Part shown: positions 27,734-50,925 of the stretch, piece after piece
How positions within the stretch are numbered: position 1 is the first letter of the stretch
How the letters are laid out: the number at the start of each line of letters is the position of its first letter
Assembly (NCBI GenBank): GCA_033762625.1
Contig: JANRLI010000005.1
Location: forward strand, 99,954-163,953
Direction of reading: 5' to 3'
From: Alphaproteobacteria bacterium
GTDB taxonomy: Bacteria > Pseudomonadota > Alphaproteobacteria > UBA9219 > RGZA01
Length of the DNA stretch: 64,000 bases
Position numbers and translations under genes: made by a program
The notes under the pieces: generated by a model
Database searches by the model: none
The model's input: only the letters and a program-made list of their open reading frames with translations
What the model was told of the DNA's origin: nothing

Positions 27734-27751
27734 CTTCCGATAGGACCCCAT

Positions 27752-29524: not shown

Positions 29525-29634
29525 CGCTGGTTTTTAAGGGGCAAAAAGCGCTAAGCGGTGTTTGCCAGCCAGCCTAAATAATGCTATCAAAGCCCCACAA
29601 AAAAGATGGGTAACCGGACGAGCGAGGCAAGGCC

Positions 29635-31601: not shown

Positions 31602-31619
31602 ACACTTTAGGAAAAATAA

Positions 31620-34012: not shown

Positions 34013-35055
34013 CACCCCAGCTTCCTGACGAACACCAGATTTATCCAGCGGCTTCGAATCCTTTTTATATCGTTGCGCCGCCTTATGTGCGCATATCGGC
34101 GGGTGTTCGCGTGCTGCATTTGCTGTGTCACAGTTTGAATAAGTTGGGTCATACGGCATATTTGCTCATGTACCCTGCGATGCCGTGGCGCGAGCACCAA
34201 ATCTGCCCAGATTTGATGACGCCTGTTTTGAATCACGATATCGTCAAAAGTCATTTTGACCGCGGCCTTACCCCTATCATGGTCTATCCGGAAACGGTAA
34301 CTGGAAATCCATTTAACAGCCCATGCGTTGTGCGGTATGTACTCAATTTCCCGGGATTGCTGGGCGGTGATAAAATATATGCCGAAAATGAATTATGTTT
34401 CAGCTATGGCGAAGTGCTGGCATCGCATACACGCAACCCTACGAATATTTTATTTTTACCAGCGATTGACACGCGTACTTATCACCCGCCTGCGGCGGGA
34501 CAAAAACGCAGCGGCACCTGCTTTTATGCGGATAAATATCAGGTAGCGCATCAAGGCAAGCTATTTGACATTACCAAGGACAGCATCGAAATCACACGAA
34601 ATAAGCCTGATAGCCAAACACCACAGCAAATCGCCGAACTATTCCGCAAAAGCGAATTATTTTACGTGTATGAAAACACCGCGCTGGCAATTGAAGCGGT
34701 GTTGTGCGGTTGCCCGGTTGTGTTTTTACCCAATGAACATCTTAGTGATATGATCGCTGTCAAGGAAATCGGCAAGGATGGGTATGCGTGGGGCGCTGAT
34801 CCTGCTGAAGTTGCCAGAGCAAAGGCAACGGTTGAGCAAGGTGCGCAGAATTATTTAAACAGTTATAAAACCTATTGGGAAGATCTGGATAAATTCATCC
34901 AGCAGTCTAAAGCGCATGTTGCAGGCAAGCCTTATACTACCATGATCACCCTGCCAAATACCTTTGATGTGATACGACAGTCTTATTATGACCGTGGTCC
35001 AGCCCGTTTCTTCCAATTGGTATTACGCCGCCTGCGAGAACTTTTAAAAATATAA
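34009..35055 (+). CDS. Hypothetical protein, possible unclassified glycosyltransferase
   Basis: 348 aa. No recognised motif. ATGA-coupled to the upstream reductase. Confidence 0.35.
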   Translation: MTPQLPDEHQIYPAASNPFYIVAPPYVRISAGVRVLHLLCHSLNKLGHTAYLLMYPAMPWREHQICPDLMTPVLNHDIVKSHFDRGLTPIMVYPETVTGNPFNSPCVVRYVLNFPGLLGGDKIYAENELCFSYGEVLASHTRNPTNILFLPAIDTRTYHPPAAGQKRSGTCFYADKYQVAHQGKLFDITKDSIEITRNKPDSQTPQQIAELFRKSELFYVYENTALAIEAVLCGCPVVFLPNEHLSDMIAVKEIGKDGYAWGADPAEVARAKATVEQGAQNYLNSYKTYWEDLDKFIQQSKAHVAGKPYTTMITLPNTFDVIRQSYYDRGPARFFQLVLRRLRELLKI

Positions 35056-35146
35056 TGGTTTCAGTGACGGTGAAACGATGCTTATCCACAAGCTAATTAA
35101 TAAAATAAAGCCTAAATCAACCCCAAACCCTCATCGCTAATAAGGA

Positions 35147-36214
35147 TTGCACTTACCGCCATATCCTTTAAAAAGAGGGGCTATTCCTCATTTAAATGGC
35201 TTAGATTTCTGTATGACACGCATCTCCGTCTGCACGCCCTGTTTCAATGAACGCGAAAGCATCCGCCGCTGCTATGAGACAGTGCGCAAGGTTTTCGAAG
35301 AAACCATGCCGGATGTCGAGCGCGAACATATTTTTGCGGATAATGGTTCAACCGATGGCACCGTAGAAATTCTGCGCGAAATTGCCGCCAATGATCCATG
35401 CGTCAAAGTCATTCTGAATATGCGCAATTTCGGAATCATTCGCAGTTCCATGAACGGTATTCTTAGCTCGTCAGGCGATGCCGTATTCATGTTCATGCCA
35501 GCCGATTTGCAGGACCCGCCAGAACTGATGCCGCAATTTGTGAAATTGTGGCGTGAAGGGTATGAAGTCGTATATGGCACCCGCGAAATTCGTGAAGAGC
35601 ACCCGCTTATGCGTAGCGTTCGCGAGATGTATTACAAAGTTTTGCGTGCATTTTCCAGTGTCCAGCTGCCAATGAATATCAGTGATTACCAATTGCTGGA
35701 TAAGCGTGTGATTGATGCGATGCGCCAGTTTGATGATGCGTATCCGTTCGTGCGTGCCATGCCGTTTCAATGCACATCGCGTACTATTGCTGTGCCCTAT
35801 ACATGGCGCGCCCGCGCAGCCGGTGTTTCGAAAAACCGCCTTTTTAATCTGATTGATCAAGGGCTAAACGGTTTTATTGCAACAACCCATGTTCCTATTC
35901 GCTTGGCGTTACTGGCAGGCTTTCTAATTTCCGCATGCAGCATTTTGTATGCGGTAGTGAATGTGGTTGGCAGTTTGTTTGCGCCAGAACCGATGGTGGG
36001 CGCGGGTATTCGTACGTTGATTGCAGGTATGTTTTTGTTCAATGGTATAATTTTATTCTTCTTGGGTGTTTTGGGCGAATATGTACTTTCCATTCACCAG
36101 CAAGTGCGCCGCCCGCCGCGCGTCGTTGAACGGGAGCGGATCAATTTCGATACCCCGCCGCGCACCCAGCAAAGTAGTGAAGAAACCGAACAGAAACAAC
36201 GGCGCGCCAGCTAA
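35147..36214 (+). CDS. GT2 polyprenyl-phosphate glycosyltransferase (GtrB/ArnC/DPM1-like) with a C-terminal 2-TM anchor
   Basis: ISVCTPCFNERESI, FADNGSTDGT and DLQDPP GT2 motifs. C-terminal TM pair ...AGMFLFNGIILFFLGVLGEY. An alternative start at 35213 is possible. Confidence 0.8.
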   Translation: MHLPPYPLKRGAIPHLNGLDFCMTRISVCTPCFNERESIRRCYETVRKVFEETMPDVEREHIFADNGSTDGTVEILREIAANDPCVKVILNMRNFGIIRSSMNGILSSSGDAVFMFMPADLQDPPELMPQFVKLWREGYEVVYGTREIREEHPLMRSVREMYYKVLRAFSSVQLPMNISDYQLLDKRVIDAMRQFDDAYPFVRAMPFQCTSRTIAVPYTWRARAAGVSKNRLFNLIDQGLNGFIATTHVPIRLALLAGFLISACSILYAVVNVVGSLFAPEPMVGAGIRTLIAGMFLFNGIILFFLGVLGEYVLSIHQQVRRPPRVVERERINFDTPPRTQQSSEETEQKQRRAS

Positions 36215-38330: not shown

Positions 38331-40688
38331 ATGTTATCTAGGTTATTTCAAACACTGGCAACCACAGCGGTTTCCAAACTAAGCAAAGCTTATCTGTGGG
38401 TTGGCAGTGCATTCAAGAAACATACCCGATTGTCTGCGGATGATTTAAGCATTGTCGGCGCTTATTGCGCAGCCATGGGCTTGGCAAGCTGGTCTATTTT
38501 CCGTTGGCTGTCGTTTGTTGCAGCGGATATTTCCTTTGAGTGGAATAGCGGTGTTGGCCCCACGCAGATCATCTTTAATACCACATTAATTACTTATGCA
38601 ATTTTGGTGTGTTCGGTAATCGGTCTCGTTGCGTTGCTATGGGTATGCGAAGCGTTACCTTTCATGCGCCGTTTACTGGTACGGCTTGCCAACGCCTGCT
38701 CGGTGCTGCTGTTGCTGTGTTCATGTGCGGCGGTATTTATTACATCTTTGGTAATCGCGCGGATTTATTTTATTATTACATTCCTGGTTTTTGTGCCGCA
38801 TGCGGTGTGCTTCTTTAAAAGTCAGACTGTGATTATGATGAAAAATCATTCCAGTGGCTTTATTCGATATGCCATGCCGTTAGTGTTATTTGTGCCGCTC
38901 GCTCTGGCATTCGCACTTGCCATCAAAGCGTGGTTTCCGGTGCAAATTCCGAATGATTATATTGAAGTAGCCGATACGGTGGTGTTGCATGGAAAGGATA
39001 ATGTGCAAACAAAGACCATTAGCCGCTCCGATGCTGTGGATTGCATGGAGGCGGCCAAGTACCCAGATAGCAATTCAAAATCGAATGGTTCACAACTAAA
39101 GCCGCAGATAAAAAAATCTGCCAAGGATGATGCCAGCATTCCCAGATGCCGTTTTGATATATCGTCAACCCAGTTACAGAAGCTATATGAACCTGTTCTT
39201 AAAACGGGTACATGGCAAGCGCAGGCAGGGCGTTTATTATATCATCACTCGTACGTATTTGTTCCTGCTATTCATGCGCTTCACTATGGGTTGGCGTCAC
39301 CCATTCCTTATCTTTACGGTCTTGGCAACACGTTGTTTCATGCCGCATTGCTGCATCTGACATCGCCTACCCTGACCAGCTATTTTGACACTTACCCGAT
39401 TGCGCAATTGACGGGCATTTTGTGTATTATGTTATTGATTTCGTATATCTCGCGTAACAGCTATGCGGCCGTGGCCGGGTTAAGCGTTGTACTCGTTGCC
39501 TTGTTTCAGTTGAAGTTTGAATTTGTGTTATTGCCACCTGGCTTTAGCCCGCTGCGCTATGCGGGGTTGGCACTGCAAGTTGCATCGATTTTTCTTTTAT
39601 TCCGAGGGACCTCGCTTTTACGCCCGTTTGGCATGATGCTGGCGCTTGCAGCCTCATTTTTCTGGAATGCAGAATATGCGATGATTGGCGCTGTTGGGCA
39701 GGGCATGGCATTGGTATCGCCGCAATACCGAATATCCGCATGGGGGCGTTTTGGCTTTCTGGGCTTGGCAGCATTGATCGCTGTTGGCGGCATGGTTGGA
39801 AATGGCTGGTATTCTACAGGTTACTTGCAGGGAATGGCGTTGGGGCTGTTTGGCCTTTTCCCGATGTTACCGACGAACTATTTCCTGGTGCTTTGCGCGC
39901 TGGTTGCTACGGGAATTGGGTTGCTTATATATGCGACAAAGCAATTTACGGCTAGTGAAGCGATGGCCCGCCTATGCGTGTTGCCTATTATGGCGTTATT
40001 GGTTGTTAAGTTCCTTTTCTATGCATTGGCCGTACATCTTTTCTATAGCATGATGTTTATAGTGCCGCTCGTACTGACATATATTGATTGGTCGAACCGT
40101 CGTCATTCATCGGTGACTGTTAACCGCCGCTGGATGGAGGCATCATTTGCGGCTAGTTTCGCGTTGCTGGCCTTTATTAACTCCATTACCTATTATTCAA
40201 GCGCACTTAAGTTCCGTGAAATCATGTCGGATCCATTTGGCACTTATCAGTGGTCAGGAATTGGCGAGCACTTTAACACCAATATTCCCCCTGAACCGAT
40301 TGTTAGCCGCGTTGAAGCGGTGCGCTCACAATTGCGTGCGGGGGATAGAGTGTTGTTCCTGTCGCCGTTTGATCATCTGCTATCCTTTTATACCAATCCC
40401 CAGCATTACTGCGGACATTTTGAAATCGTGTTAAACCCAATAACAACAAAAATGGTGCGGTCACTTGTGGACTGTGCGCGTGATTCCACGCAGCTGTTAA
40501 TAGTATATGACGAGGCGGAAAGATACGCATGTCCTGATGGATGGCGCGCGCAGTATTATGATAGGCCTTCATGCGAGTATAAACGAAATCTCAAGCAAAA
40601 CGCGCTGACCATATTACGCGCGCTGGGTGATGATATTGTTCCGGTCACAAAAATCGGGCCGCTTACTTTTTACCGAAAAAACCATTAA
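38331..40688 (+). CDS. Large polytopic membrane protein (>=12 TM) with a C-terminal soluble domain; candidate GT-C glycosyltransferase
   Basis: 785 aa. Hydrophobic throughout with a ~170 aa hydrophilic C-terminus. Sits immediately after gtrA. Confidence 0.45.
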   Translation: MLSRLFQTLATTAVSKLSKAYLWVGSAFKKHTRLSADDLSIVGAYCAAMGLASWSIFRWLSFVAADISFEWNSGVGPTQIIFNTTLITYAILVCSVIGLVALLWVCEALPFMRRLLVRLANACSVLLLLCSCAAVFITSLVIARIYFIITFLVFVPHAVCFFKSQTVIMMKNHSSGFIRYAMPLVLFVPLALAFALAIKAWFPVQIPNDYIEVADTVVLHGKDNVQTKTISRSDAVDCMEAAKYPDSNSKSNGSQLKPQIKKSAKDDASIPRCRFDISSTQLQKLYEPVLKTGTWQAQAGRLLYHHSYVFVPAIHALHYGLASPIPYLYGLGNTLFHAALLHLTSPTLTSYFDTYPIAQLTGILCIMLLISYISRNSYAAVAGLSVVLVALFQLKFEFVLLPPGFSPLRYAGLALQVASIFLLFRGTSLLRPFGMMLALAASFFWNAEYAMIGAVGQGMALVSPQYRISAWGRFGFLGLAALIAVGGMVGNGWYSTGYLQGMALGLFGLFPMLPTNYFLVLCALVATGIGLLIYATKQFTASEAMARLCVLPIMALLVVKFLFYALAVHLFYSMMFIVPLVLTYIDWSNRRHSSVTVNRRWMEASFAASFALLAFINSITYYSSALKFREIMSDPFGTYQWSGIGEHFNTNIPPEPIVSRVEAVRSQLRAGDRVLFLSPFDHLLSFYTNPQHYCGHFEIVLNPITTKMVRSLVDCARDSTQLLIVYDEAERYACPDGWRAQYYDRPSCEYKRNLKQNALTILRALGDDIVPVTKIGPLTFYRKNH

Positions 40689-40706: not shown

Positions 40707-42320
40707 ATGTCAGGCATAACGACGCTCCCTCGCAAATGGATATGGTTCTGGATTACAGCACTGCTTGTTGCGGGTTCGGTAGCGGTTTGGCATCACATGC
40801 CCATCATGCCGGATGAAATTGCCATACGCGTTCAAGCGGGCAGATTTATTCAGGATCAGGGAATGGCAACCGGGCTTTTCGCATTATGTGCCAACCGGTT
40901 GCAAGCCGTACCGGGGATTTTTATTCCTTCAGCATGGCTATTATCATTGGGCGATCTCGCTTTCTCGCCGATTGATTTGCGCGTTATATCCATTAGCGCC
41001 TTGGTGTTATGCGCTGTTATTGCAATGCGGGGTGCTTTTAAAAATGCCAATCATGCAGCAATGCTTTGGATGGTTGCTGCATTTTTGGGTGTATCCGGTT
41101 CAACGCTGGTATTTTTCCGCTTCGAAGTTTTTTTGATCATCCATCTTTGCTTGTGTATGACAGCGTTACAGGTGCTCAAAAAAAATCAACCTGGAATCTT
41201 GCATCTGGTGTTAACAGGCGCGCTGCTTTTTAGCCTGCTCACCATGGGGTATGTTCACCCGCAAGCATTTCTGTTTATCCCTTTAACTGCTTATTTGTGC
41301 TACAGGCTAATATGTGGAACGCGTATTGACGTGGTTAAACTGTTTATTGGTCTTGCGCTGTTTGCAGGTATCGCGGTGACCATTCATTTCTTTTTTCAAT
41401 TGTCATGCGTTGGACATAAAGAAATCGAAATCTTTTGGGGTGAAATGATTTTTGATATGTCGCGATTGGTATCGGCTGATTTTTTCAATATTATAAAAGA
41501 AAAATTCAAGCTCTTTGCATTTTCATTTACATACAACGATTCCTATACCATCGGCTATTTGCCAGGCATTACCAAGGATATGTTTGCAGCGCGAGGCATT
41601 CTAAATGCGGCTATTGTTATTGGTTTGTTGATGGTGATGGTAACAGGCGTAATGCTGGGATGCGCCTATGTATATCGCTTTGTTGCAATATACATCCTGC
41701 GCCGTCAACAACCGGCAGGGTTTGATTTGGATGCCGCGGTAGGATTCAGTTTTATCTTTTTTCCTTCGCTGTTTTATTTACTTTACGATGCGCATCTTTA
41801 TTTTTACCGGTCTTTTATCATAAATTTTTTATTCGTTATTGCTGTGGTCATCGGCCTTTCCACGATTGATAACAAACTACTCAAGACAATAACTGCCTAC
41901 GCGGGAGGGGTTTTATGTCTTGTTTGTGCATTTTCCATTTACACAAATTTTGCCTATTTTTATAAACCCATACAAACCTATGAGGGCCCTTCTGCATCGC
42001 TAGATCGCGATTGGGCACACGCACCTGAACGGCTAAACCGTTTTGCCCAGAGCTGCGGGATTGATTTGACCAAAGGCGGCGGGATTATTGATGATGTTAC
42101 CTATGAGGGGGTGAAGCAGTACCCGCGTGTCTATCAAATTACCTACCTTGGGCTACAAATGGGGCTTGCTAAGATAAAGCCTGAAACGGTAATAACCACT
42201 TTAAAGCCTAATTATGTATTGGCGCGCTGCAGCGAAATGGAAGCGATAGGGCTTGGTTGGCCGGCTGATAAGCAAGAAGGCGATCTTTGCTGTAAACGCT
42301 ATAGCCCCGCGTCAGAATAA
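40707..42320 (+). CDS. Polytopic membrane protein, candidate GT-C glycosyltransferase (GtrC-like)
   Basis: 537 aa, multi-TM. Acidic first-loop motif MPDEIAIR typical of GT-C catalytic DE/DD loops. Confidence 0.45.
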   Translation: MSGITTLPRKWIWFWITALLVAGSVAVWHHMPIMPDEIAIRVQAGRFIQDQGMATGLFALCANRLQAVPGIFIPSAWLLSLGDLAFSPIDLRVISISALVLCAVIAMRGAFKNANHAAMLWMVAAFLGVSGSTLVFFRFEVFLIIHLCLCMTALQVLKKNQPGILHLVLTGALLFSLLTMGYVHPQAFLFIPLTAYLCYRLICGTRIDVVKLFIGLALFAGIAVTIHFFFQLSCVGHKEIEIFWGEMIFDMSRLVSADFFNIIKEKFKLFAFSFTYNDSYTIGYLPGITKDMFAARGILNAAIVIGLLMVMVTGVMLGCAYVYRFVAIYILRRQQPAGFDLDAAVGFSFIFFPSLFYLLYDAHLYFYRSFIINFLFVIAVVIGLSTIDNKLLKTITAYAGGVLCLVCAFSIYTNFAYFYKPIQTYEGPSASLDRDWAHAPERLNRFAQSCGIDLTKGGGIIDDVTYEGVKQYPRVYQITYLGLQMGLAKIKPETVITTLKPNYVLARCSEMEAIGLGWPADKQEGDLCCKRYSPASE

Positions 42321-42323: not shown

Positions 42324-43022
42324 ATGACCAAAAAAGTCGCCATCGTTCAGTCAAATTACATCCCCTGGAAGGGATTTTTTGACATGATTGCCGCAGTAGA
42401 TGAATTCATTTTATATGATGATATGCAATTCACGCGGCGGGACTGGCGCAACCGTAACCAGATTAAAACCCCGCAGGGGCTTTCATGGCTATCGGTACCT
42501 GTCCAGTCCAAAGGAAAGTACGACCAAAAAATCAGGGATACGGAAATCGATGGGACGGATTGGGCTGCATCGCATTGGAAGTCCATATCGCTTAACTATG
42601 CGCGCGCACCGCATTTCAAGGAAATCGCCGAATGGTTGCAACCCATTTACCAGCAGCAGACATTCACCAATCTGTCCGTTTTGAACCGCACCTTGATTGA
42701 AGCGGTGTGTAACTATCTTAGTATTAAAACTGTCATTAAAAATTCATGGGATTATAAATTAATAGACGGAAAAACCGAACGCCTTGCCGATTTATGCAAA
42801 CAGGCGGGTGGCAGTGAATATATCTCTGGCCCTGCGGCCAAAGACTATATCGATGATACGGTTTTCGCCCATTACGCCATTAAACTGACGTGGTTTGACT
42901 ACCAAGGGTACAGCGAATATCCTCAGCTTTGGGGTGATTTTGCGCATAATGTGAGCATTGTCGATCTGCTGTTTAATTGTGGCAAAGATGCCCCGCGCTA
43001 TATGAGGTTTGTCAAATCATGA
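42324..43022 (+). CDS. WbqC-like family protein
   Basis: [45 protein letters not shown] matches the WbqC family N-terminus. Confidence 0.75.
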
Positions 43023-43968
43023 AGCTATCCCCATGAAACTATCGATTGTTGCCACGCTTTATAAATCGAGCGCGTATATTGATGCGTTCCACCAGCGGTG
43101 CAGCGCGGTTGCCACGGCCTATGCAGGCGATGACTACGAAATCGTACTAGTCAATGATGGCTCGCCTGATGATAGCTTGCAGCGCGCAATTGCCCTTTCG
43201 CAAAAGGATGCGCATGTGGTGGTGGTTGATTTGTCGCGTAATTTTGGTCACCACAAGGCAATGATGACTGGCCTTGCGCAGGCAAAAGGTGAGCGCATTT
43301 TTTTAATCGACAGCGATTTGGAAGAAGAACCTGAATGGTTGTCGTTATTCCAAGCGCAAATGGATGCTGAAGATTGCGACGTTGTGTTTGGCGTTCAGGA
43401 AAAACGCAAAGGCAACTGGCTTGAGCAATGTTCAGGCCCTGTCTATTACAGCATCTTCCGCTTGTTCACTGGTATCAATCAGCCAGATAATATCGTAACC
43501 GCACGCCTGATGACGCGCCGTTATGTCGATGCGCTGCTGCTGCATAAGGAGCGCGAGCTCAATATCGGCGGTTTGTGGATTATCACCGGCTTTAAGCAGA
43601 CAACACAGGTTGTCAAAAAGCACGAAACCAGCCCCACTACGTATTCGATTGCGCATAAGGTGGGCCATTTGGTCAATGCGGTAACATCGTTCAGCAGCAT
43701 GCCGTTGGTATTCACCTTTTATGCCGGGCTTTTCATTTCATTTGGCGCGCTGGTTTATATCGCGCATCTTGTCATTCATTATCTGTTTGGATCCGCGCCG
43801 CCCGATGGCTATACATCCATCATTGCATCGATCTGGCTGTTTTCTGGGCTGATTATTTTCTTTCTTGGGGTGCAGGGAATTTATATCTCCAAACTGTTTA
43901 TGGAAGTGAAGCAGCGCCCCTATACCATCATCCGCCGCATCTATGGCCGCAACAACGGAGGCGGCTAA
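43009..43968 (+). CDS. GT2 polyprenyl-phosphate glycosyltransferase (GtrB/ArnC-like) with a C-terminal TM anchor
   Basis: [23 protein letters not shown] and DSDLEE motifs. C-terminal TM pair. The likely real start is at 43033 (MKLSIV). Confidence 0.8.
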
Positions 43969-44597
43969 TGTCCAGCGCTTCCAAGCTTGCGGATGTTGCA
44001 ACCTATTACACAGAAAAACTGACCGCGCACGGGCAAACTGCGCGCGGCGTTGATTGGAATGGTGAAGAAAGCCAGAACCTGCGCTTCACGCAGCTGTGCA
44101 AAATTATTGATCCGGAATTGAAGGATTTTTCAATCAATGATCTGGGGTGCGGCTATGCCGCGCTTGTAGATTTTTTGGTACAGCGCCATCCGCATTTCTC
44201 GTATAACGGGTTTGACGTATCGCAAGCGATGCTGGATGCCGCGATGGAACGCCATAAGGGTAAGCCAACTATTCGTTTTGGGTTGGCAGATAAGCCGGAC
44301 GCTGTAGCCGATTATGGTATTGCCAGCGGCATTTTTAATGTGCGGTTGAAACAGACTGATGCCGAGTGGCTTCAGCATTTTGAAGCGACGCTGGATGAAT
44401 TGAACCGTACCAGCCGCCGCGGGTTTGCATTCAATGCGCTCACATCCTATTCCGATGCCGATAAAATGCGCGAAAACCTTTATTACGCATCCCCTGCGAC
44501 AATTTTTGACATATGCAAGAAGCGCTATTCCCGTAATGTTGCGCTTTTGCATGATTATGATCTTTACGAATTCACGATTTTGGTGAGGAAAGCATGA
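43968..44597 (+). CDS. Class I SAM methyltransferase
   Basis: INDLGCGYAALVDFL motif I. TAATG-coupled. Confidence 0.55.
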   Translation: MSSASKLADVATYYTEKLTAHGQTARGVDWNGEESQNLRFTQLCKIIDPELKDFSINDLGCGYAALVDFLVQRHPHFSYNGFDVSQAMLDAAMERHKGKPTIRFGLADKPDAVADYGIASGIFNVRLKQTDAEWLQHFEATLDELNRTSRRGFAFNALTSYSDADKMRENLYYASPATIFDICKKRYSRNVALLHDYDLYEFTILVRKA

Positions 44598-46504
44598 CAA
44601 TTGAAGCAACGCTTCTGTTTTTAGTGACCCTGGTTGCATGTTACATCGCTGTTCGCAAAAGCGTTGCCTTGCAAGGATTGTCCGTTCGGTTTGCCGATGT
44701 TCTTCAGCGCCGCGCTTTTCCCGCGCCATCGGATTTTGAGCATATCAAATTTGCGTTTCTGCGCATCATTTTTGGCGGATTATTGTTGAACCGCGCAGTT
44801 CAGATATTCATTTATATGTTGCCGGAAGAATATGGAACCGCGGCTGGCCTGTGCGCAATCGCTACTATTGTTTCAGCGGTATTTGTTATGGTTGGCCTCT
44901 TCACGCAGTGGTCGTTGGTTTTTTCGATGGGTTTCCTGTGGCAAACCAGCGAAGGAATTTTAAAAAACTCTACCCTTGGCAATGATATTGCTGCGGCGCT
45001 GAGCCTTTTATTATTGCTTACCAGCGCAGGAAAGTTTTTGTCGGTAGATGGTTGGATACTGAGCCGATTGAAAAACAAATCATGGTGCAATTTGCTGCTT
45101 TATGATCATGACATTCCCAGCAAACGTACCATCGCCCTTGCCAAATTCGTATCGTTGTTTGCTTATTTTTTGGTATGTGTATTTTCCATCTGCGTGCATT
45201 TGCATGAATCCGCATGGATGACAGGGGTGGCTGGCCCTTATCTGCTCAGCAATAATTTTATGACTGCGCCGCATGAATTCTTCACACAATTATTTGTGCA
45301 ATATCCGATTGCAGTCATTATCGCCAAATTCTCCCTTTGGGTGATGATGGTGTGGTATCCCACCATTATTCCGTTTGTGTTAATGGGCGGGATATTCCGG
45401 TGGTATATTGTGTATTGGGGCTTGGCGTTTTTGATCTTGTCGTCATTCGTATTGCAACTTGGCTCCCTTGCCGAATTTGAATTTGTGTTCTGGGCGGGGA
45501 TTTTCTGGGCCAATACTGCCCTTGATAGTCGAAAAAAACTATCTGTCTATTATGACGACACCTGCAACTTATGTGACCGCACGGTGCTGGTCATTACTGT
45601 GCTGGATATTTTCAATCGTGTGGCACTGCGTCCGTTATCAAAACATACTGAAGAATTGCGCAGTTATGGCATAAGCCATGAAGCCGCGATGCAAAATCTT
45701 TATGGTATTCAGGAAGAAAACGGCACAGCCAAACCCGGCACAGTCACTTCGGGTACGGTAAAATTCGGATATGATTTTTATATCATGCTGGCAAAGAACC
45801 TGTTCCTGTTGTGGCCGGTTTTGCCATTCTTGTATTTAGGTAAAATTCTGCTGATTGGCCCTGCCATTTACAGCCTTGTTGCCCAAAAACGCCATGCCAT
45901 GTTTGGGGTATGCAAACTTCCCACCAAGAAAGTAGAACGCAGCGCGCCCGTTACTTCAGATAAATTGCCGATTGCGGGTAACGCCGTTGTGTTGCATGTG
46001 ATGTTGATGGCTTTGTGCTATATCGTAGCCATTCCGTATCCTTATCTTAATATTCAGGGCTTTGATAATATTGGCGCGAAAGCGGCAGCATTTTACGGGA
46101 TTGCGCCGATTAATGTCTTTAACCGCGAAGATCTGCGTATGGCCGAAAACTGGTTCACGCTGCGTGATATTAAAAATGATAGCATGGTGCCGTTATTTGC
46201 CAAGGATGGATCACGCTTGCGCATGCACCGTTCTGATCGTGTTTATTTTGGCCATACGTTACTTTTCCGCAGATCGGTCATCGATAAAGAAGGATGTTTC
46301 TTTAATGAATGGCAGGCGCAGATGGAATACCTATCGAAGGTTTATCTGCATAGTATCAATGCACCTGCTGGTACATATCCATTTGAATATGTACAGTATA
46401 AACAACCCTTACCCAACGATGCCAAGGTGAACATAGGCGAATACGTATTGGAGCCCGTTACCACCCCATGCACAAAGACTTATGATATAGATTACAAACC
46501 ATGA
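44594..46504 (+). CDS. Fusion membrane protein: N-terminal HTTM domain plus DCC-family (DUF393) thiol-disulfide oxidoreductase-like domain, then a C-terminal soluble domain
   Basis: HTTM signature FAFLRIIFGGLLLNRAVQ with ~8 TM. DUF393 motif VYYDDTCNLCDRTVLVITVLDIFNRVALRPL. ATGA-coupled on both sides. Confidence 0.6.
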   Translation: MTIEATLLFLVTLVACYIAVRKSVALQGLSVRFADVLQRRAFPAPSDFEHIKFAFLRIIFGGLLLNRAVQIFIYMLPEEYGTAAGLCAIATIVSAVFVMVGLFTQWSLVFSMGFLWQTSEGILKNSTLGNDIAAALSLLLLLTSAGKFLSVDGWILSRLKNKSWCNLLLYDHDIPSKRTIALAKFVSLFAYFLVCVFSICVHLHESAWMTGVAGPYLLSNNFMTAPHEFFTQLFVQYPIAVIIAKFSLWVMMVWYPTIIPFVLMGGIFRWYIVYWGLAFLILSSFVLQLGSLAEFEFVFWAGIFWANTALDSRKKLSVYYDDTCNLCDRTVLVITVLDIFNRVALRPLSKHTEELRSYGISHEAAMQNLYGIQEENGTAKPGTVTSGTVKFGYDFYIMLAKNLFLLWPVLPFLYLGKILLIGPAIYSLVAQKRHAMFGVCKLPTKKVERSAPVTSDKLPIAGNAVVLHVMLMALCYIVAIPYPYLNIQGFDNIGAKAAAFYGIAPINVFNREDLRMAENWFTLRDIKNDSMVPLFAKDGSRLRMHRSDRVYFGHTLLFRRSVIDKEGCFFNEWQAQMEYLSKVYLHSINAPAGTYPFEYVQYKQPLPNDAKVNIGEYVLEPVTTPCTKTYDIDYKP

Positions 46505-47166
46505 AACAAAAGCTGGTCATCTTTGGAGCAGGAGAGATTGCGCAATTGGCGCATTATTACTTCACGCATGATAGCGATTATGAAGTCGTGGCGTTTACGG
46601 CTGATAGCGCCTTTATCAAAGAGCCCGTATTCTGCGGATTACCCGTGGTGGCGTTTGAAGAAGTCGCACAGATTTACCCGCCATCCACCCATGATTTTTT
46701 TGTGGCGCTCAGCTATTCCAAATTGAATTTGCTTCGTAAGGACAAATACCTTGCCGCAAAGGCAAAGGGCTATCGGCTCGCCAGCTATATCAGCCCCAAG
46801 GCGAGTGTGTTGAATGATGGCCGTATTGGGGAAAATTGCTTTGTTTTTGAGGACAACACCATCCAGCCTTTTGCGCATATCGGCAATAACGTGACGTTAT
46901 GGAGTGGTAATCATATTGGCCATCATTCAACGATTAAAGACCATAGTTTCATTTCTTCGCATGTGGTGGTGTCGGGCGGTGTAGTGATTGGCGAGCAATG
47001 CTTTATCGGCGTCAACGCCACGCTTCGTGACCACATCACGATTGGTGATCGCTGCGTTATCGGGGCTGGCGCTATTCTTCTTTCCAATGCGGAAGCCGAA
47101 GGCGTTTATATGGGCAGTGAAACGGAACGCTCCAAAGTGCCCAGTACACGCTTGAAAGCCATATAG
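46501..47166 (+). CDS. NeuD/PglD-family sugar N-acetyltransferase (hexapeptide repeat)
   Basis: N-terminus KLVIFGAGEIAQLAHYYFTHDSDYEVVAFTAD is NeuD-like. C-terminal left-handed beta-helix hexapeptide repeats. Confidence 0.8.
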   Translation: MKQKLVIFGAGEIAQLAHYYFTHDSDYEVVAFTADSAFIKEPVFCGLPVVAFEEVAQIYPPSTHDFFVALSYSKLNLLRKDKYLAAKAKGYRLASYISPKASVLNDGRIGENCFVFEDNTIQPFAHIGNNVTLWSGNHIGHHSTIKDHSFISSHVVVSGGVVIGEQCFIGVNATLRDHITIGDRCVIGAGAILLSNAEAEGVYMGSETERSKVPSTRLKAI

Positions 47167-48078
47167 ATGGGTGCGTGGAAAAAACTTGGAAAGCTGTATT
47201 CCTTGCCGGAAGGCGGGGTGCACCCCAAACTTCTTTCCCATACCGCCAACCCGTTGCCTGTATTGCTGGATGGCGATGTCTATCGCATTTTTTACAGTAG
47301 CCGCGATAAGGATAACCGTTCATCTGTTGGCGCGGTAGATATGGATATTGTGAAGCGCAGCGTGGTGCGTGAGCACACCGAGCCGCTTTTCGAAGTTGGC
47401 GAAAAGGGCAGTTTCTATGAAGCAGGCGTCAGCATCGGCAATTGTTATGAAGCAGACGGAAAAACCTACATGCTGTTTATGGGCTGGCAAAATCCGGATG
47501 GCGGGCATTGGCGCGGCGATATAGGACGTTTGCGTGTTATGCCAGATTTGTCATTACAGCTTGATAGTGCGCAGCCGTTTATGGGCGTTGATGCGATTGA
47601 TCCCATCAGCCTTTCATATCCTTGGGTGATTAAAAACGCGGATGGCAGTTATTCCATGTGGTACGGTTCCACGCAAAGCTGGGATGCAGGAAATGGTGAA
47701 ATGCTGCATGTAATTAATGGCGCGTCATCACATGATGGCCATAACTGGAAACGTGAAGGATTGGCGGTTCCATACCAGTTGGGTGTGGCGCAGGCATTTT
47801 CGCGGCCCACGGTCGCGCGGGATGAACATGGCTATAAAATGTGGTTTTCATACCGCAGCGGTGCAGGCGAGACGTACCGTATTGGGTGCGCGTCGAGCAA
47901 GGATACTAAGGAATGGAAATTGGCGTTAGACCAATCGGGGATTGATGTTTCAACCGATGGCTGGGATAGCGAGATGATTGAATATCCCTTTGTTTTTGAC
48001 CACAAGGGCCAGCGTTATATGCTGTATAACGGTAACGGATACGGGAAAACCGGTTTTGGTCTGGCAGTGCAGGTATGA
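47167..48078 (+). CDS. Five-bladed beta-propeller protein, GH130/DUF377-like (putative glycosidase or glycoside phosphorylase), tentative
   Basis: N-terminal NP...DG.YRIFYS motif and repeated W/Y-rich blades. Starts immediately after the NeuD stop. Confidence 0.4.
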   Translation: MGAWKKLGKLYSLPEGGVHPKLLSHTANPLPVLLDGDVYRIFYSSRDKDNRSSVGAVDMDIVKRSVVREHTEPLFEVGEKGSFYEAGVSIGNCYEADGKTYMLFMGWQNPDGGHWRGDIGRLRVMPDLSLQLDSAQPFMGVDAIDPISLSYPWVIKNADGSYSMWYGSTQSWDAGNGEMLHVINGASSHDGHNWKREGLAVPYQLGVAQAFSRPTVARDEHGYKMWFSYRSGAGETYRIGCASSKDTKEWKLALDQSGIDVSTDGWDSEMIEYPFVFDHKGQRYMLYNGNGYGKTGFGLAVQV

Positions 48079-48479
48079 ACGAAGCATTGAATATAAAAGC
48101 AACGGCAATACAGTTCGTGCGTTATGCCATGGTGGGGCTTGTTTCCAATGTAATGGGTTATCTGATCTATTTGCTGGTAACCTATCTGGGTATGGCTCCA
48201 AAAATTGCAATGACTTTTTTATATGGAGTTGGTGTGACCATCAGCTTCTTCGGCAACCGCTATTTGGTGTTTGCGGATGGCGGCAGATTGAAAACAACGG
48301 GCATTAAATTCATAGCGGCTTATCTCATCGGGTATTTTTTGAACCTTTCGCTGTTAATTGTGTTTGTTGACCAGATGGGGTATCCGCATCAAATCGTGCA
48401 GGCAATTGCAATTTGCGTTGTTGCGGTATTTCTGTTCTGTGCGCTTAAAGTTTTTGTCTTTAAAAAGGATGCGCCATGA
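48075..48479 (+). CDS. gtrA: GtrA-family small membrane protein (second copy)
   Basis: 134 aa, 4 TM. VRYAMVGLVSNVMGYLIYLLV ... NRYLVF. Confidence 0.7.
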   Translation: MNEALNIKATAIQFVRYAMVGLVSNVMGYLIYLLVTYLGMAPKIAMTFLYGVGVTISFFGNRYLVFADGGRLKTTGIKFIAAYLIGYFLNLSLLIVFVDQMGYPHQIVQAIAICVVAVFLFCALKVFVFKKDAP

Positions 48480-49348
48480 AACGGTGTTTAGCATGCGGTG
48501 GATATTATAATTCCACTTACCCAAATTGCCCGCAATGCCACGTAAAACCCCAATTAATAGATGGATTTGAAGCGCATGCCCCAGCTTTCGCGCGTGAAAG
48601 CAGCGGGTTCAAGCCAGAATATTTCTCCGAGTTGGCCAAGCTTGAAGCCGCCAATTTCTGGTTTAAATCGCGTAACGCGATACTTGTATGGGCGTTAAAA
48701 ACCTATGCGCAGGTTTTTGGCTCGTTCCTTGAAATTGGTTGTGGCACGGCGTTTGTATTGTCCGGAATTGCTGCGGTATTTCCAAATGCCAAATTATTTG
48801 GCAGTGAAATTTTAACCGCAGGCCTCGGTTTTGCTGCGCAGCGTTTGCCCCAGGCAAAATTCATGCAGATGGATGCGCGTGATATTCCGTTTAAAGACGA
48901 GTTTGATGTGATAGGCGCATTCGATGTGCTTGAACATATTGAAGAAGACCAACAAGTGCTGGCGCAAATTCATCAGGCCTTAAAGCCGCAGGGTATTGTT
49001 ATGCTGACTGTGCCGCAGCATGAATGGCTGTGGAGTGCAGCAGATGAATATGCCTGCCATGTGCGCCGCTATACACGTGAAGAAATTGAAACCAAGGTAA
49101 AAAAAGCAGGCTTCAAAATTTTGCGCAGCACGTCATTTATTACAGTATTGCTGCCCGCCATGATGGCTTCGCGCCTGTTGTCAAACAAAGTACCCGTAAA
49201 GGAATATGATGCGCAGGCGGAGCTACGACTGCCCCAATACGTCAATTCATTGTTTTTATTGCTTTTAAATTGCGAGCTGGCCCTGATTAAATTAGGCATT
49301 AATCTGCCGATTGGTGGATCACGGCTAGTGGTCGCCAAACGTATCTAA
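48476..49348 (+). CDS. SAM methyltransferase with an N-terminal CxxC...CxxC zinc ribbon
   Basis: CLACGGYYNSTYPNCPQC, then LEIGCGTAFVL motif I. Confidence 0.65.
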   Translation: MKRCLACGGYYNSTYPNCPQCHVKPQLIDGFEAHAPAFARESSGFKPEYFSELAKLEAANFWFKSRNAILVWALKTYAQVFGSFLEIGCGTAFVLSGIAAVFPNAKLFGSEILTAGLGFAAQRLPQAKFMQMDARDIPFKDEFDVIGAFDVLEHIEEDQQVLAQIHQALKPQGIVMLTVPQHEWLWSAADEYACHVRRYTREEIETKVKKAGFKILRSTSFITVLLPAMMASRLLSNKVPVKEYDAQAELRLPQYVNSLFLLLLNCELALIKLGINLPIGGSRLVVAKRI

Positions 49349-49364: not shown

Positions 49365-50498
49365 ATGGCGCCATCCCGCATTCCCTTTAACCTGCCGCAC
49401 ATGACGGGCAAGGAAATGGAATATATTGCGCAATCGCATCGCAATGGAAAATTGGCAGGTGATGGCCCTTTTACCAAGCAATGTCATGGTTGGCTCGAAC
49501 AACGCACAGGTTCTGCTAAAGCATTACTGACCCATTCCTGTACGGCTGCGTTGGAAATGGCGGCGTTGCTTTTGGATATTCGGCCGGGTGATGAAATCAT
49601 CATGCCGTCTTATACCTTTGTGTCGACGGCTAATGCATTCGTACTGCGCGGCGGTGTACCGGTGTTTGTCGATATCCGGCCCGATACACTGAATTTAAAT
49701 GAAAACTTAATTGAAGAAGCAATTACGCCGCGCACGCGCGCAATCGTACCCGTGCATTATGCCGGTGTTGCATGCGAGATGGATGCAATTATGGGTATTG
49801 CAAAAAAGCACAAACTTGCTGTGGTTGAAGATGCAGCACAGGGGGTGATGGCAAGCTATAAGGGTAGAGCGCTGGGCAGCATCGGCGATTTGGGGGCATA
49901 TAGTTTTCATGAAACCAAGAATGTTATTTCGGGCGAAGGCGGCGCATTGCTGGTCAACCGTCCGGATATGCAGCTGCGCGCAGAAATCATCCGTGAAAAA
50001 GGAACAGATCGCAGCCGTTTTTTCCGCGGTGAAGTTGATAAATATACATGGCAGGAAGTAGGATCATCATTCTTGCCCGGCGAGTTGATTGCTGCATTCT
50101 TATGGGCCCAATTCGAACAGGCCGATGAAATTACCAAAGGCCGTATGGAGGCATGGAATTATTACCATGACCAGCTATCACACTTGGAAGGCAAAGGCGT
50201 ATTACGGCGTCCACTCATTCCTAACGCATGCCAGCATAATGCCCATATGTATTATGTTTTGCTGGCTGAAGGCATTGACCGTCAGTACGTGCTGAACGAA
50301 TTTAAAAAACAAGATATTTCCTGCGTATTCCATTATGTGCCGCTGCATTCATCGCCTGCTGGTTTGAAATATGGCCGTGCGCATGGTGAATTGAATGTCA
50401 CGGATAAACAGGCTGAACGGTTAGTACGCTTGCCGTTATGGGTTGGGTTAAGCCGCGCACAACAAGATAATGTGATTGATATTTTAAAAGCGCTTTGA
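49365..50498 (+). CDS. DegT/DnrJ/EryC1-family aminotransferase (WecE/ArnB-like 4-amino sugar transaminase)
   Basis: 377 aa. ...SFHETKNVISGEGGALLV catalytic Lys region and EDAAQGVMA motif. Confidence 0.85.
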   Translation: MAPSRIPFNLPHMTGKEMEYIAQSHRNGKLAGDGPFTKQCHGWLEQRTGSAKALLTHSCTAALEMAALLLDIRPGDEIIMPSYTFVSTANAFVLRGGVPVFVDIRPDTLNLNENLIEEAITPRTRAIVPVHYAGVACEMDAIMGIAKKHKLAVVEDAAQGVMASYKGRALGSIGDLGAYSFHETKNVISGEGGALLVNRPDMQLRAEIIREKGTDRSRFFRGEVDKYTWQEVGSSFLPGELIAAFLWAQFEQADEITKGRMEAWNYYHDQLSHLEGKGVLRRPLIPNACQHNAHMYYVLLAEGIDRQYVLNEFKKQDISCVFHYVPLHSSPAGLKYGRAHGELNVTDKQAERLVRLPLWVGLSRAQQDNVIDILKAL

Positions 50499-50559: not shown

Positions 50560-50633
50560 TGGTTGGGGGACGTGGATTCGAACCACGGTAAACAGAGTCA
50601 GAGTCTGTTGTCCTACCGCTAGACGATCCCCCA
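50560..50633 (-). tRNA. tRNA-Gln (anticodon CUG)
   Basis: Manual fold of the minus strand: UGGGGGA acceptor with a U1:A72 pair, D-arm GUCU/GGAC, anticodon stem ACAGA/UCUGU with loop CUCUGAC, T-arm CGUGG-UUCGAAU-CCACG, discriminator A and encoded CCA. Confidence 0.85.
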
Positions 50634-50673: not shown

Positions 50674-50925
50674 CTATTTTTTGCCGGTTGTTTTATCATA
50701 CACATATCCAGCGCCAGCGCCCACTGCGCCGCCAATGGCCGCGCCACACGCAACACAGCCGCCTGTCATTACCGTCACGGCTGCGCCAGTTCCTGCGCCA
50801 ATTGCACCGCCGGAAAGGGTGCGTTGCTGCGTTGTGTTCATATCGCTGCAAGCAGTCAGGCCAACCAAAACAGTTACAAGTAAAGCCATGGCGCGAATGC
50901 TGCGTGAAGTGAATATCGAATTCAT
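50674..50925 (-). CDS. Glycine-zipper lipoprotein (17 kDa surface antigen / Slp-like)
   Basis: Lipobox LTAC. Gly-zipper GAIGAGTGAAVTVMTGGCVACGAAIGGAVGAGAGY. Confidence 0.6.
   Translation of the reverse strand: MNSIFTSRSIRAMALLVTVLVGLTACSDMNTTQQRTLSGGAIGAGTGAAVTVMTGGCVACGAAIGGAVGAGAGYVYDKTTGKK

What the first reader, a model, noticed from the sequence alone, without database searches (positions are those of the whole stretch)
44594..46504. HTTM (vitamin-K-carboxylase-like transmembrane) domain fused to a DCC/DUF393 thiol-disulfide oxidoreductase inside a glycan operon
The N-terminal ~280 aa carry the HTTM signature (FAFLRIIFGGLLLNRAV, about 8 TM). Residues ~310-380 carry the DUF393/DCC1 CxxC motif (YYDDTCNLCDRTV). 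A further ~250 aa domain of unknown function follows. Bacterial HTTM proteins have no established function. A redox-active CxxC partner fused to one, and translationally coupled between a methyltransferase and a sugar N-acetyltransferase, suggests redox-dependent membrane chemistry on a lipid-linked sugar or a peptide substrate.
Basis: partly seen in the sequence, partly recalled or inferred. Interest (0 to 1): 0.7.

Follow-up and report, generated by a model that had tools for sequence, protein, structure and literature searches.

The report
Divergent vitamin-K-carboxylase-like membrane enzyme in glycan operon
This gene encodes a membrane protein distantly related to the vitamin-K carboxylase of blood clotting but lacking that enzyme's catalytic residues; it carries an optional cytoplasmic thiol-redox insert and an unclassified outer domain, and it travels across many bacterial phyla with a gene set for a lipid-carried amino-sugar, which points to an uncharacterised step in cell-surface glycan synthesis.

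Summary
The ORF (44594-46504, 636 aa) is real. It overlaps both neighbouring genes by ATGA.

- **DCC1-like domain:** confirmed (Pfam E=1.7e-13). Its CxxC is kept in 167 of 174 relatives that have the domain.
- **Carboxylase residues are replaced:** K218→H202 (100% conserved), D263→Tyr, N159/H160→Leu/Gly, F299→Leu.
- **Core versus insert:** the core is the membrane domain plus the C-domain. DCC is an optional insert in a predicted cytoplasmic loop, on the face opposite the H202 site.
- **Genomic context:** 32 of 61 species-level loci, from Proteobacteria to Bacteroidota and Chloroflexota, keep X next to WbqC, a methyltransferase, a VioB-type acetyltransferase, a 303-aa protein, a WecE-type aminotransferase and usually an ArnC-like GT2.

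Most likely X is a periplasm-facing enzyme acting on a lipid-linked 4-acylamino-4,6-dideoxyhexose, with DCC as accessory redox support. The chemistry is unknown. This is a new variant of a known kind.

The parts
44594..46504 (+). Gene X: 636-aa membrane protein. Layout: extra TM helix, HTTM-like membrane domain, DCC1-like insert, TM helix, C-terminal domain.
   Evidence: ORF. It is 100% identical to a protein annotated 'MAG Alphaproteobacteria DUF393 domain-containing protein', and 94 full-length-type homologues were found. AF2 model pLDDT 94.6, pTM 0.93.
44738..45523 (+). N-domain (residues 49-310): divergent HTTM/VKGC-superfamily membrane domain.
45197..45226 (+). H202-x5-W208-x2-G211 motif at the predicted periplasmic end of TM5. 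H202 occupies the position of GGCX catalytic K218.
   Evidence: Present in 229 of 231 family members. H202, W208 and F279 are 100% conserved in 214 sequences.
45539..45907 (+). DCC1-like thioredoxin-fold domain (residues 316-438), inserted in a predicted cytoplasmic loop.
   Evidence: Pfam PF04134, E=1.7e-13. The domain is absent from 43 N+C-only relatives, which have a short K/R-rich loop in its place.
45563..45574 (+). CxxC (C324-N-L-C327) within the motif DDTCNLCD.
   Evidence: Alignments A1 and A2. Kept in 167 of 174 DCC-bearing members. Lost in P0009, P0029, P0043 and others.
45971..46033 (+). TM helix (residues 460-480) leading to the C-domain. It is preceded by a strongly K/R-rich linker.
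   Evidence: Model helix H460-479. The linker 432-459 has net charge +3.7 across the family.
46034..46501 (+). C-domain (residues 481-636): family-specific alpha/beta domain, predicted periplasmic. Invariant residues: N510, D513, R541, S547, D548, R559, R560 and the C568/C626 pair.
42324..43022 (+). WbqC-like protein, a conserved module partner.
   Evidence: Pfam PF08889, E=6.6e-83. Co-located with X in 30+ loci.
43009..43968 (+). GT2 with C-terminal TM helices, ArnC/PgfS-like. Probably a polyprenyl-phosphate sugar synthase.
   Evidence: Pfam Glycos_transf_2. NCBIfam best hits are PgfS and undecaprenyl-phosphate Ara4FN transferase, both below their cutoffs. Conserved in module loci.
43968..44597 (+). 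209-aa class I methyltransferase, a module partner. Its stop overlaps the start of X.
46501..47166 (+). NeuD/PglB/VioB-family sugar N-acetyltransferase, a module partner. Its start overlaps the stop of X.
   Evidence: TIGR03570, 187.7 bits against a cutoff of 160.8..
47167..48078 (+). 303-aa protein of unknown function, a module partner.
   Evidence: Only a weak GINT1_N hit and a GH43-like hit. Conserved with X across phyla.
48075..48479 (+). GtrA-family small membrane protein, a putative lipid-linked sugar flippase.
   Evidence: Pfam PF04138, E=1.8e-18.
48476..49348 (+). 290-aa methyltransferase, a frequent module partner.
49365..50498 (+). WecE/VioA-type dTDP-4-amino-4,6-dideoxyhexose transaminase.
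   Evidence: TIGR02379, 645.5 bits against a cutoff of 434.85. Conserved in module loci.
40707..42320 (+). 537-aa polytopic membrane protein with no family match. It sits in the slot upstream of WbqC that unrelated large membrane proteins fill in other genomes.

Best explanation
X is a divergent member of the HTTM / vitamin-K-carboxylase superfamily. It is not a carboxylase of the GGCX type.

**Core.** The conserved core has two parts. The first is a polytopic membrane domain whose remodelled GGCX-type pocket (H202, W208, F279, S283) opens at the periplasmic face. The second is a family-specific periplasmic domain, tethered by one more TM helix and rich in invariant Arg, Ser, Asp and Asn. It probably caps that pocket.

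**Role in this genome.** Here and in about half of the species examined, X is the constant membrane component of a gene module. That module builds a dTDP-4-amino-4,6-dideoxyhexose (WecE-type transaminase), N-acylates and tailors it (VioB-type acetyltransferase, WbqC, methyltransferases, the 303-aa protein), loads it on a polyprenyl phosphate (ArnC-like GT2) and flips it (GtrA).

**Inferred mechanism.** X most likely acts on that lipid-linked sugar, or on the glycan that receives it, at the outer face of the inner membrane. H202 would serve as general base, in a reaction coupled to a membrane quinone held in the retained ring-stacking pocket.

**The DCC domain.** It sits in a cytoplasmic loop. 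It is an accessory module that feeds cytoplasmic thiol reducing power to, or regulates, the membrane domain. It is dispensable or supplied in trans in some lineages.

**Shown:** homology, residue replacements, domain census, operon linkage. **Inferred:** topology, substrate, quinone use, role of DCC.

**Confidence.** About 0.75 that X is a periplasm-facing HTTM-superfamily enzyme functionally tied to this sugar module. About 0.35-0.4 that the chemistry is quinone-linked redox.
For: **Homology to the GGCX membrane domain:**
- hhalign 90.9%.
- Foldseek top 14 hits are all GGCX.

**Retained positions:** R68/G72/D183/W223/R276/F286/G297 correspond to R57/G61/D152/W208/R269/F279/G290. H202, W208 and F279 are 100% conserved in 214 sequences.

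**Core is N+C, with DCC optional:**
- N+DCC+C occurs 163 times and N+C 43 times.
- CxxC-less paralogues stand in tandem in L003, L008 and L033.

**Topology:** K/R-rich loops all fall on one side and acidic loops plus the cap on the other. DCC-less forms have a short basic loop between the last two TM helices.

**Operon linkage:**
- 32 of 61 species-level loci have at least 3 of WbqC/MT209/AcT221/P303 within 10 kb. This includes Bacteroidota, where X is only 23-26% identical.
- Gene order varies between loci, and the partners are better conserved than X.
- A M. marinum isolate carries it too.

**Enzyme identities:** WecE-type and VioB-type above curated cutoffs; GT2 ArnC/PgfS-like.

**Only large membrane protein in some loci:** in L022, L039, L049, L058 and L062, X is the only large polytopic membrane protein near the module.
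Against: - No biochemical data exist for any member.
- 29 of 61 loci have no module within 10 kb, for example Pseudomonas sp. B14-6 and Neorhizobium galegae. The family's function therefore cannot be strictly tied to this sugar.
- Most module loci also carry a variable large membrane protein next to WbqC. That protein could do the periplasmic transfer and leave X with an unidentified side role.
- K218, D263, H160 and F299 are all replaced, so quinol activation as in GGCX is unproven.
The CxxC-to-H202 distance and the packing of the C-domain over the pocket are not measured.
- Topology rests on the positive-inside rule and on analogy with GGCX.
Confidence: 0.5

Rival explanations
1. X is a non-redox enzyme that handles polyprenyl phosphate. 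The isoprenoid tunnel of the HTTM fold would bind the undecaprenyl-phosphate sugar rather than a quinone. X would then transfer the sugar to its acceptor, as a GtrC/ArnT-like role performed by a non-GT-C fold, or otherwise process it. The DCC domain would be structural or regulatory.
For: - X is the only large polytopic membrane protein that stays constant with the GT2+GtrA module.
- It is the only one present at all in L022, L039, L049, L058 and L062.
- X diverges faster than the soluble partners, as acceptor-specific transferases do.
- Invariant Arg residues (R57, R67, R541, R559, R560) could bind phosphate.
- DCC and its CxxC are dispensable in some module loci.
Against: - Three or more unrelated families of large membrane proteins alternate next to WbqC. 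They look like the acceptor-specific transferases.
- No glycosyltransferase is known in the HTTM superfamily.
- The quinone-stacking Phe (F286→F279) is 100% conserved.
- A CxxC conserved in 96% of cases argues for redox chemistry.
Confidence: 0.22
2. X is a true vitamin-K/quinol- and O2-dependent carboxylase or epoxidase, like GGCX and MloH. It would generate a strong base to carboxylate a C-H acid on the sugar's N-acyl group, for example N-acetyl to N-malonyl. The DCC domain would recycle quinone epoxide, as VKOR does in animals.
For: - Superfamily membership.
- A bacterial precedent exists in MloH (PMC12647623).
- An N-acetyltransferase sits immediately downstream.
- The best, though sub-threshold, hits of both methyltransferases are carboxyl O-methyltransferases (BioC, Tam).
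- N-malonyl-4-amino-4,6-dideoxyhexoses are known in O-antigens (my own recollection, not checked here).
Against: - All residues shown to be needed are replaced: K218→His, D263→Tyr (only D263E keeps partial activity, PMC13486548), N159/H160→Leu/Gly, F299→Leu.
- The LL9 loop and lumenal domain (Y395, W399, M401) are absent.
- The methyltransferases are cytoplasmic, whereas the pocket is periplasmic.
- Many hosts make only ubiquinone (my own knowledge of Pseudomonas and Rhizobium).
Confidence: 0.08
3. X is a DsbB/VKOR-like disulfide-forming machine. The thioredoxin-like DCC domain would oxidise exported proteins and pass electrons to a quinone in the HTTM-like domain.
For: - It combines a thioredoxin-fold CxxC with a quinone-type membrane domain.
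- Weak DoxX/DoxD hits appear in a few members.
Against: - The DCC domain is flanked by strongly basic linkers and replaces a short basic loop, so it is predicted to be cytoplasmic.
- It is optional.
- The conserved genomic partners are sugar-pathway enzymes, not exported cysteine-rich proteins.
Confidence: 0.05

Closest known systems
Human gamma-glutamyl carboxylase GGCX / Pfam HTTM (PF05090)
   Same: - Same membrane-domain fold and distant sequence homology over about 240 residues.
- Conserved scaffold and pocket residues: R68, G72, D183, W223, R276, F286, G297.
- A three-short-helix cap follows TM5 (compared with PMC12647623).
- The active-site region lies at the extracytoplasmic membrane interface.
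   Different: - Not recognised by the Pfam model.
- Catalytic K218→His, D263→Tyr, N159/H160→Leu/Gly, F299→Leu.
- No VKGC lumenal domain.
- An extra N-terminal TM helix and a DCC insert.
- Different genomic context (sugar pathway).
Bacterial HTTM + DCC1-like two-domain proteins paired with a TM-DUF5819 partner (e.g. A0A1G6IBF2/A0A1G6IAS5 of Melghirimyces; bioRxiv 10.64898/2026.08.19.745780)
   Same: - Same order of parts: HTTM-type domain, DCC1-like domain with extra helices, then one TM helix and a ~155-aa extracytoplasmic domain.
- Here all parts are on one chain, whereas there they are on two adjacent genes.
   Different: - In those proteins Pfam recognises HTTM and DUF5819. Here neither is recognised in any of 139 members scanned.
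- Homology of the C-domain to DUF5819 could not be tested, because no DUF5819 sequences were available.
- That paper reports no glycan context.
MloH (malonomycin biosynthesis), a bacterial vitamin-K-dependent carboxylase
   Same: A bacterial HTTM-superfamily enzyme that acts on a small-molecule pathway intermediate rather than a protein.
   Different: MloH is described as a GGCX orthologue with conserved catalytic residues (PMC12647623). X lacks them. X sits in a polysaccharide-type operon, not a PKS-NRPS cluster.
Stand-alone DCC/DUF393 proteins (B. subtilis YuxK, Arabidopsis DCC1)
   Same: Full-length match to PF04134, including the DxxCxxC motif and the C-terminal helices.
   Different: Here the domain is an internal insert in a loop of a large membrane protein. 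It has been lost repeatedly.
Three-component Und-P-sugar modification systems (GtrA/GtrB/GtrC; ArnC/ArnE-F/ArnT)
   Same: The module contains a GtrB/ArnC-like GT2, GtrA, an amino-sugar pathway, and a large membrane protein with an outward-facing site.
   Different: X is not a GT-C-fold protein. Its role in the scheme is not established.

Membership tests
HTTM / vitamin-K-dependent gamma-carboxylase (Pfam PF05090) | Significant match to the Pfam HTTM model | tested here: not met
   No hit for the window protein at E<=1. No hit for any of 76 close or 63 remote relatives.
HTTM / vitamin-K-dependent gamma-carboxylase (Pfam PF05090) | Homology to the family detectable by profile-profile comparison | tested here: met
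   hhalign of A5 against A7 (41 proteins carrying PF05090): 90.9% probability, E=1.1e-6, 218 columns.
HTTM / vitamin-K-dependent gamma-carboxylase (Pfam PF05090) | Fold of the GGCX transmembrane domain | tested here: met
HTTM / vitamin-K-dependent gamma-carboxylase (Pfam PF05090) | Catalytic base Lys218 | tested here: not met
   Aligned to H202, which is His in 100% of 214 members. K218 is invariant in the canonical set.
HTTM / vitamin-K-dependent gamma-carboxylase (Pfam PF05090) | Asp263 beside the base (only D263E is tolerated, PMC13486548) | tested here: not met
   Aligned to Y255.
HTTM / vitamin-K-dependent gamma-carboxylase (Pfam PF05090) | Glu-binding Asn159/His160 and CO2-pocket Phe299 | tested here: not met
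   Aligned to L128/G129 (or N130 in the alternative alignment) and to L292.
HTTM / vitamin-K-dependent gamma-carboxylase (Pfam PF05090) | Trp223 and the quinone-stacking Phe286 | tested here: met
   W208 and F279, both 100% conserved.
HTTM / vitamin-K-dependent gamma-carboxylase (Pfam PF05090) | VKGC lumenal domain (PF22777) after the membrane domain | tested here: not met
HTTM / vitamin-K-dependent gamma-carboxylase (Pfam PF05090) | Quinol- and O2-dependent epoxidase/carboxylase activity | not testable with these tools
   Needs biochemistry.
DCC1-like / DUF393 thiol-disulfide oxidoreductase (PF04134) | Match above Pfam's gathering score over the whole model | tested here: met
   52.2 bits against 27.8. 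Residues 318-438 cover model positions 1-112 of 113.
DCC1-like / DUF393 thiol-disulfide oxidoreductase (PF04134) | DxxCxxC motif, conserved among relatives | tested here: met
   D321-D322-T-C324-N-L-C327. C..C is present in 167 of 174 members with a covered DCC domain.
DCC1-like / DUF393 thiol-disulfide oxidoreductase (PF04134) | Thiol-disulfide exchange activity | not testable with these tools
   Needs an assay.
HTTM-DCC + DUF5819 two-gene system (bioRxiv 10.64898/2026.08.19.745780) | HTTM-type domain followed by a DCC1-like domain | tested here: met
   Domain order.
HTTM-DCC + DUF5819 two-gene system (bioRxiv 10.64898/2026.08.19.745780) | One TM helix plus a DUF5819 domain as the extracytoplasmic partner | tested here: inconclusive
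   A TM helix plus a ~156-aa domain is present in the same position. Pfam DUF5819 is not hit in any member. No profile-profile test was possible.

The most novel reading that the evidence does not exclude
The N-domain and C-domain core defines a previously unrecognised enzyme class. It would be an HTTM-superfamily membrane catalyst, with His in place of the catalytic Lys, that uses a membrane quinone, possibly with O2, at the outer face of the inner membrane. It would chemically tailor a polyprenyl-phosphate-linked 4-acylamino-4,6-dideoxyhexose or the glycan that receives it. A cytoplasmic DCC thioredoxin-fold insert would re-reduce the cofactor. In effect this would be a self-contained 'vitamin-K cycle' recruited to bacterial surface-glycan biosynthesis.
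Probability: 0.18. Interest if true: 0.85.

Novelty: new variant of a known kind. Interest (0 to 1): 0.62.

Why it matters
HTTM-superfamily proteins are abundant in bacteria, but only one, MloH, has a demonstrated function. This family gives a concrete and testable handle on another.

- It has a well-defined set of invariant residues.
- It has a confident structural model.
- It has a genomic partner set that names the likely substrate class, a lipid-linked 4-acylamino-4,6-dideoxyhexose.

If X performs quinone-linked chemistry on a glycan, that would extend vitamin-K-carboxylase-type catalysis from peptides to carbohydrates. It would also suggest a role for the long-unexplained DCC/DUF393 domain.

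At minimum, the work supplies two unannotated domain families. One is a divergent HTTM branch. The other is a periplasmic domain with no structural neighbour in the PDB subset searched. It also supplies a conserved six- to nine-gene glycan module containing two more proteins of unknown function (WbqC and the 303-aa protein).

Tried and rejected
1. **Pfam and NCBIfam for HTTM, VKGC-lumenal, DUF5819, SdpA/SdpB:** no hits at permissive thresholds.
2. **Family profile against PDB sequences:** no GGCX hit. hhalign against the single GGCX sequence gave only 5.8%. Only the profile-profile comparison worked.
4. **AlphaFold-database fold search:** the library was unavailable.
5. **Model coordinates:** not exposed.
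6. **The 628-aa and 1199-aa genes near the Pseudomonas homologue:** unrelated to X.
7. **Literature on WbqC, or on HTTM/DUF393 together with O-antigen:** nothing useful.
8. **PDB sequence searches with WbqC, the 303-aa protein and M537:** nothing informative.
9. **Pfam on the variable membrane proteins next to WbqC:** only DUF6044 in Bacteroidota.
10. **X as the sole periplasmic transferase of the module:** kept only as a rival, because variable large membrane proteins usually accompany the module.
Full report
**What is there.** Its ATG overlaps the TGA of the upstream methyltransferase gene (ATGA), and a GAGGA sequence lies upstream. Its own TGA overlaps the ATG of the downstream acetyltransferase gene. 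The protein is identical to a database entry named only 'DUF393 domain-containing protein' from an alphaproteobacterial MAG. It has about 90 full-length-type homologues of 620-690 aa in Pseudomonas, Rhizobium/Neorhizobium, Labrenzia, Roseobacter, Mycobacterium marinum and Chloroflexota. None is annotated with anything but PF04134.

**The DCC domain.** Pfam DCC1-like matches residues 318-438 over the whole model (E=1.7e-13, 52.2 bits against a cutoff of 27.8). The motif is DDTCNLCD.

**The HTTM claim.**
- Pfam and NCBIfam find no HTTM in this protein.
- They find none in any of 76 close relatives at E<=10, or in 63 remote relatives.
- A family profile does not reach GGCX chains in the PDB.
- An exhaustive HMMER search with the N-domain profile finds only 425 clusters among 1.84 billion representatives. 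Canonical HTTM proteins are not reached.

More sensitive methods recover the relationship.
- A full-length AlphaFold2 model is very confident (pLDDT 94.6, pTM 0.93).
- Foldseek against the PDB returns human GGCX as the top 14 hits (probability 1.00), after which E jumps to about 1.
- I verified a GGCX sequence against the PDB, collected 41 genuine PF05090 proteins and ran a profile-profile comparison. It gave 90.9% probability, E=1.1e-6, 218 columns, with residues 49-292 aligned to GGCX 60-299.

The N-domain is thus a distant branch of the HTTM superfamily, outside the current Pfam model.

**The catalytic residues.** The canonical set has these invariants: H160, D183, K218, W223, D263, F286, N290, G297, F299, W399 and M401. 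These are the residues assigned by the cryo-EM work to quinol deprotonation, quinone stacking, Glu binding and CO2 trapping (PMC12647623). In the alignment the mapping is as follows.

| Role in GGCX | GGCX residue | Residue in X |
|---|---|---|
| Scaffold / pocket, kept | R68, G72, D183, W223, R276, F286, G297 | R57, G61, D152, W208, R269, F279, G290 |
| Catalytic base | K218 | H202 |
| Beside the base | D263 | Y255 |
| Catalytic centre | N290 | S283 |
| Glu carboxylate binding | N159 / H160 | L128 / G129 |
| CO2 pocket | F299 | L292 |

H202, W208 and F279 are 100% conserved in 214 family sequences. The motif H-x5-W-x2-G is present in 229 of 231. Published mutagenesis says only D263E retains partial activity, and K218 is the criterion used to call related proteins epoxidases (PMC13486548). 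By those criteria X is not a vitamin-K carboxylase or epoxidase of the known type. It does keep an invariant, polar, remodelled version of the same pocket.

**The C-terminal part.** After the DCC domain come a basic linker, one TM helix (460-480) and a ~156-aa alpha/beta domain. I suspected it might correspond to GGCX's lumenal domain or to DUF5819. A 2026 preprint shows DUF5819 sitting in that position as the partner of HTTM-DCC proteins (bioRxiv 10.64898/2026.08.19.745780). The tests did not support the GGCX lumenal idea.
- hhalign against the HTTM+lumenal profile gives 0.4%.
- No member hits Pfam DUF5819.

The architectural parallel with the two-gene system is striking, but homology is untested.

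**Domain census.** I used domain HMMs built from the family on all 249 collected proteins. N+DCC+C occurs 163 times and N+C without DCC 43 times; the rest are mostly fragments. Even close relatives (P0113, P0118) lack DCC. In L003, L008 and L033 a CxxC-bearing copy stands in tandem with a copy that keeps the DCC fold but has lost both cysteines. Actinobacterial members have lost the first Cys (P0043) or the whole C..C motif (the L032 gene). The obligate core is therefore N-domain plus C-domain, and DCC is an accessory insert.

**Topology (inferred).**
- Across 76 sequences the K/R-rich segments all fall on one side: loop 23-48 (+1.7), loop 145-176 (+2.7), the H8-DCC linker (+0.9) and the DCC-TM9 linker (+3.7).
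- The acidic segments fall on the other side: loop 74-82 (-1.4) and the cap 203-237 (-1.8).
- In DCC-less forms a short basic loop joins the last two TM helices.
- By analogy with GGCX, where the N-terminus is cytosolic and K218 lies at the lumenal interface, H202, the cap and the C-domain are periplasmic and the DCC domain is cytoplasmic.
- The conserved C568/C626 pair in the C-domain is compatible with a periplasmic disulfide.

The CxxC therefore probably does not face the HTTM pocket. I could not measure this directly, because coordinates were not exposed.

**Genomic context.** In the window X lies in a co-directional run of genes: GtrA, two unannotated membrane proteins (785 and 537 aa), WbqC, GT2, methyltransferase, X, acetyltransferase, 303-aa protein, GtrA, methyltransferase, aminotransferase.
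- The aminotransferase passes the curated cutoff for WecE/VioA-type dTDP-4-amino-4,6-dideoxyhexose transaminases.
- The acetyltransferase passes the cutoff for the NeuD/PglB/VioB family.
- The GT2 is most like PgfS and ArnC.

A scan of species-representative genomes gave 64 loci. In 32 of the 61 loci that encode a recognisable X, at least three of WbqC, MT209, AcT221 and P303 lie within 10 kb, usually with the GT2, GtrA, MT290 and the WecE-type gene.
- This holds in Alpha-, Beta- and Gammaproteobacteria, Chloroflexota and Actinomycetota. It also holds in Bacteroidota, where X is only 23-26% identical.
- Gene order differs between lineages.
- The soluble partners are much better conserved than X.
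- A M. marinum isolate has X-MT-AcT-DegT.

That is strong evidence of functional linkage. The other half of the loci show no module within 10 kb (for example). The slot upstream of WbqC is filled by at least three unrelated families of large membrane proteins. Five module loci have no other large membrane protein.

**Interpretation.**
- *Shown:* X is a distant HTTM-superfamily protein with a DCC insert and a novel C-domain. Its carboxylase residues are replaced. It is genomically tied to a lipid-linked 4-amino-4,6-dideoxyhexose module.
- *Inferred:* it acts at the periplasmic face on the lipid-linked sugar or its acceptor. H202 is the key base, probably with a quinone in the retained pocket. 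The cytoplasmic DCC supplies or senses thiol reducing power.

The main rival is a non-redox role handling Und-P-sugar, possibly the transfer step itself. A true carboxylase and a DsbB-like oxidase are unlikely.

**Novelty.** HTTM+DCC fusions and bacterial HTTM enzymology are already in the literature, so this is not categorically new. Four things appear to be undescribed: the Lys-to-His branch, the orphan periplasmic domain, the single-chain architecture and the cross-phylum link to a glycan module. I rate it a new variant of a known kind, interest about 0.6.

Noticed in passing
window 26633-36214: Upstream, in the same orientation, lies a second sugar pathway. Its genes are a DHQ-synthase-like protein, a thiamine-diphosphate enzyme (590 aa), a nucleotidyltransferase, a 4,6-dehydratase, a 456-aa DegT-family protein, an epimerase/reductase, a 348-aa protein with no family, and a GT2. 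The combination resembles pathways for branched-chain 3,6-dideoxyhexoses such as yersiniose (my recollection, untested).
   Followed up: partly
window 38331-40688 and 40707-42320: Two large polytopic membrane proteins (785 and 537 aa) have no Pfam, NCBIfam or PDB match. The slot upstream of WbqC is filled by unrelated ~520-aa or ~600-aa membrane protein families, or DUF6044, in other genomes. That pattern fits acceptor-specific transferases.
   Followed up: partly
L003:11909-13780, L008:11364-13256, L033:2852-4768: Tandem paralogues of X keep all three domains and the H-x5-W-x2-G motif but have lost both cysteines of the CxxC. This occurs in at least two distant lineages. It may indicate heteromeric pairs.
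   Followed up: partly
window 42324-43022 and 47167-48078: WbqC (PF08889) and the 303-aa protein are both of unknown function. Across phyla both are better conserved than X (normalised bit scores up to about 0.9 for WbqC and 0.85 for the 303-aa protein, against 0.07-0.78 for X). Neither has a solved relative by sequence.
   Followed up: partly
L004:7724-8542, L003:7745-8569, L007:5289-7100, L004:3535-4473: Some versions of the module carry extra oxygen-dependent tailoring genes next to X: PhyH-type dioxygenase, a membrane fatty-acid-desaturase-type protein, and a Rieske protein. A giant-virus paper reports HTTM-type epoxidase domains fused to desaturases (PMC13486548). A possible parallel, not examined.
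   Followed up: no
window 50560-50633 (-): A tRNA-Gln (CTG) gene lies immediately after the last gene of the cluster. It is followed by a small glycine-rich putative lipoprotein ORF (50674-50925, -), then rlmE/ftsJ-like and IMP dehydrogenase genes. L003 shows the same FtsJ-IMPDH flank.
   Followed up: partly
L054, L056, L059-L061 (Bosea, Lichenihabitans and a gammaproteobacterial MAG), P0154-P0181: A sub-branch of 800-1060-aa proteins has the N-domain, usually DCC, a weakly matching C-domain and a long extra C-terminal extension. None has the glycan module nearby.
   Followed up: no
L002 (Neorhizobium galegae) 7897-16125: The stand-alone homologue lies near DoxX, an Rdx-family protein, a LysR regulator and a catalase-peroxidase. 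In Pseudomonas (L001) a glutaredoxin gene lies two genes downstream. This may hint at a redox or oxidative-stress context for module-less copies. It could also be coincidence.
   Followed up: no
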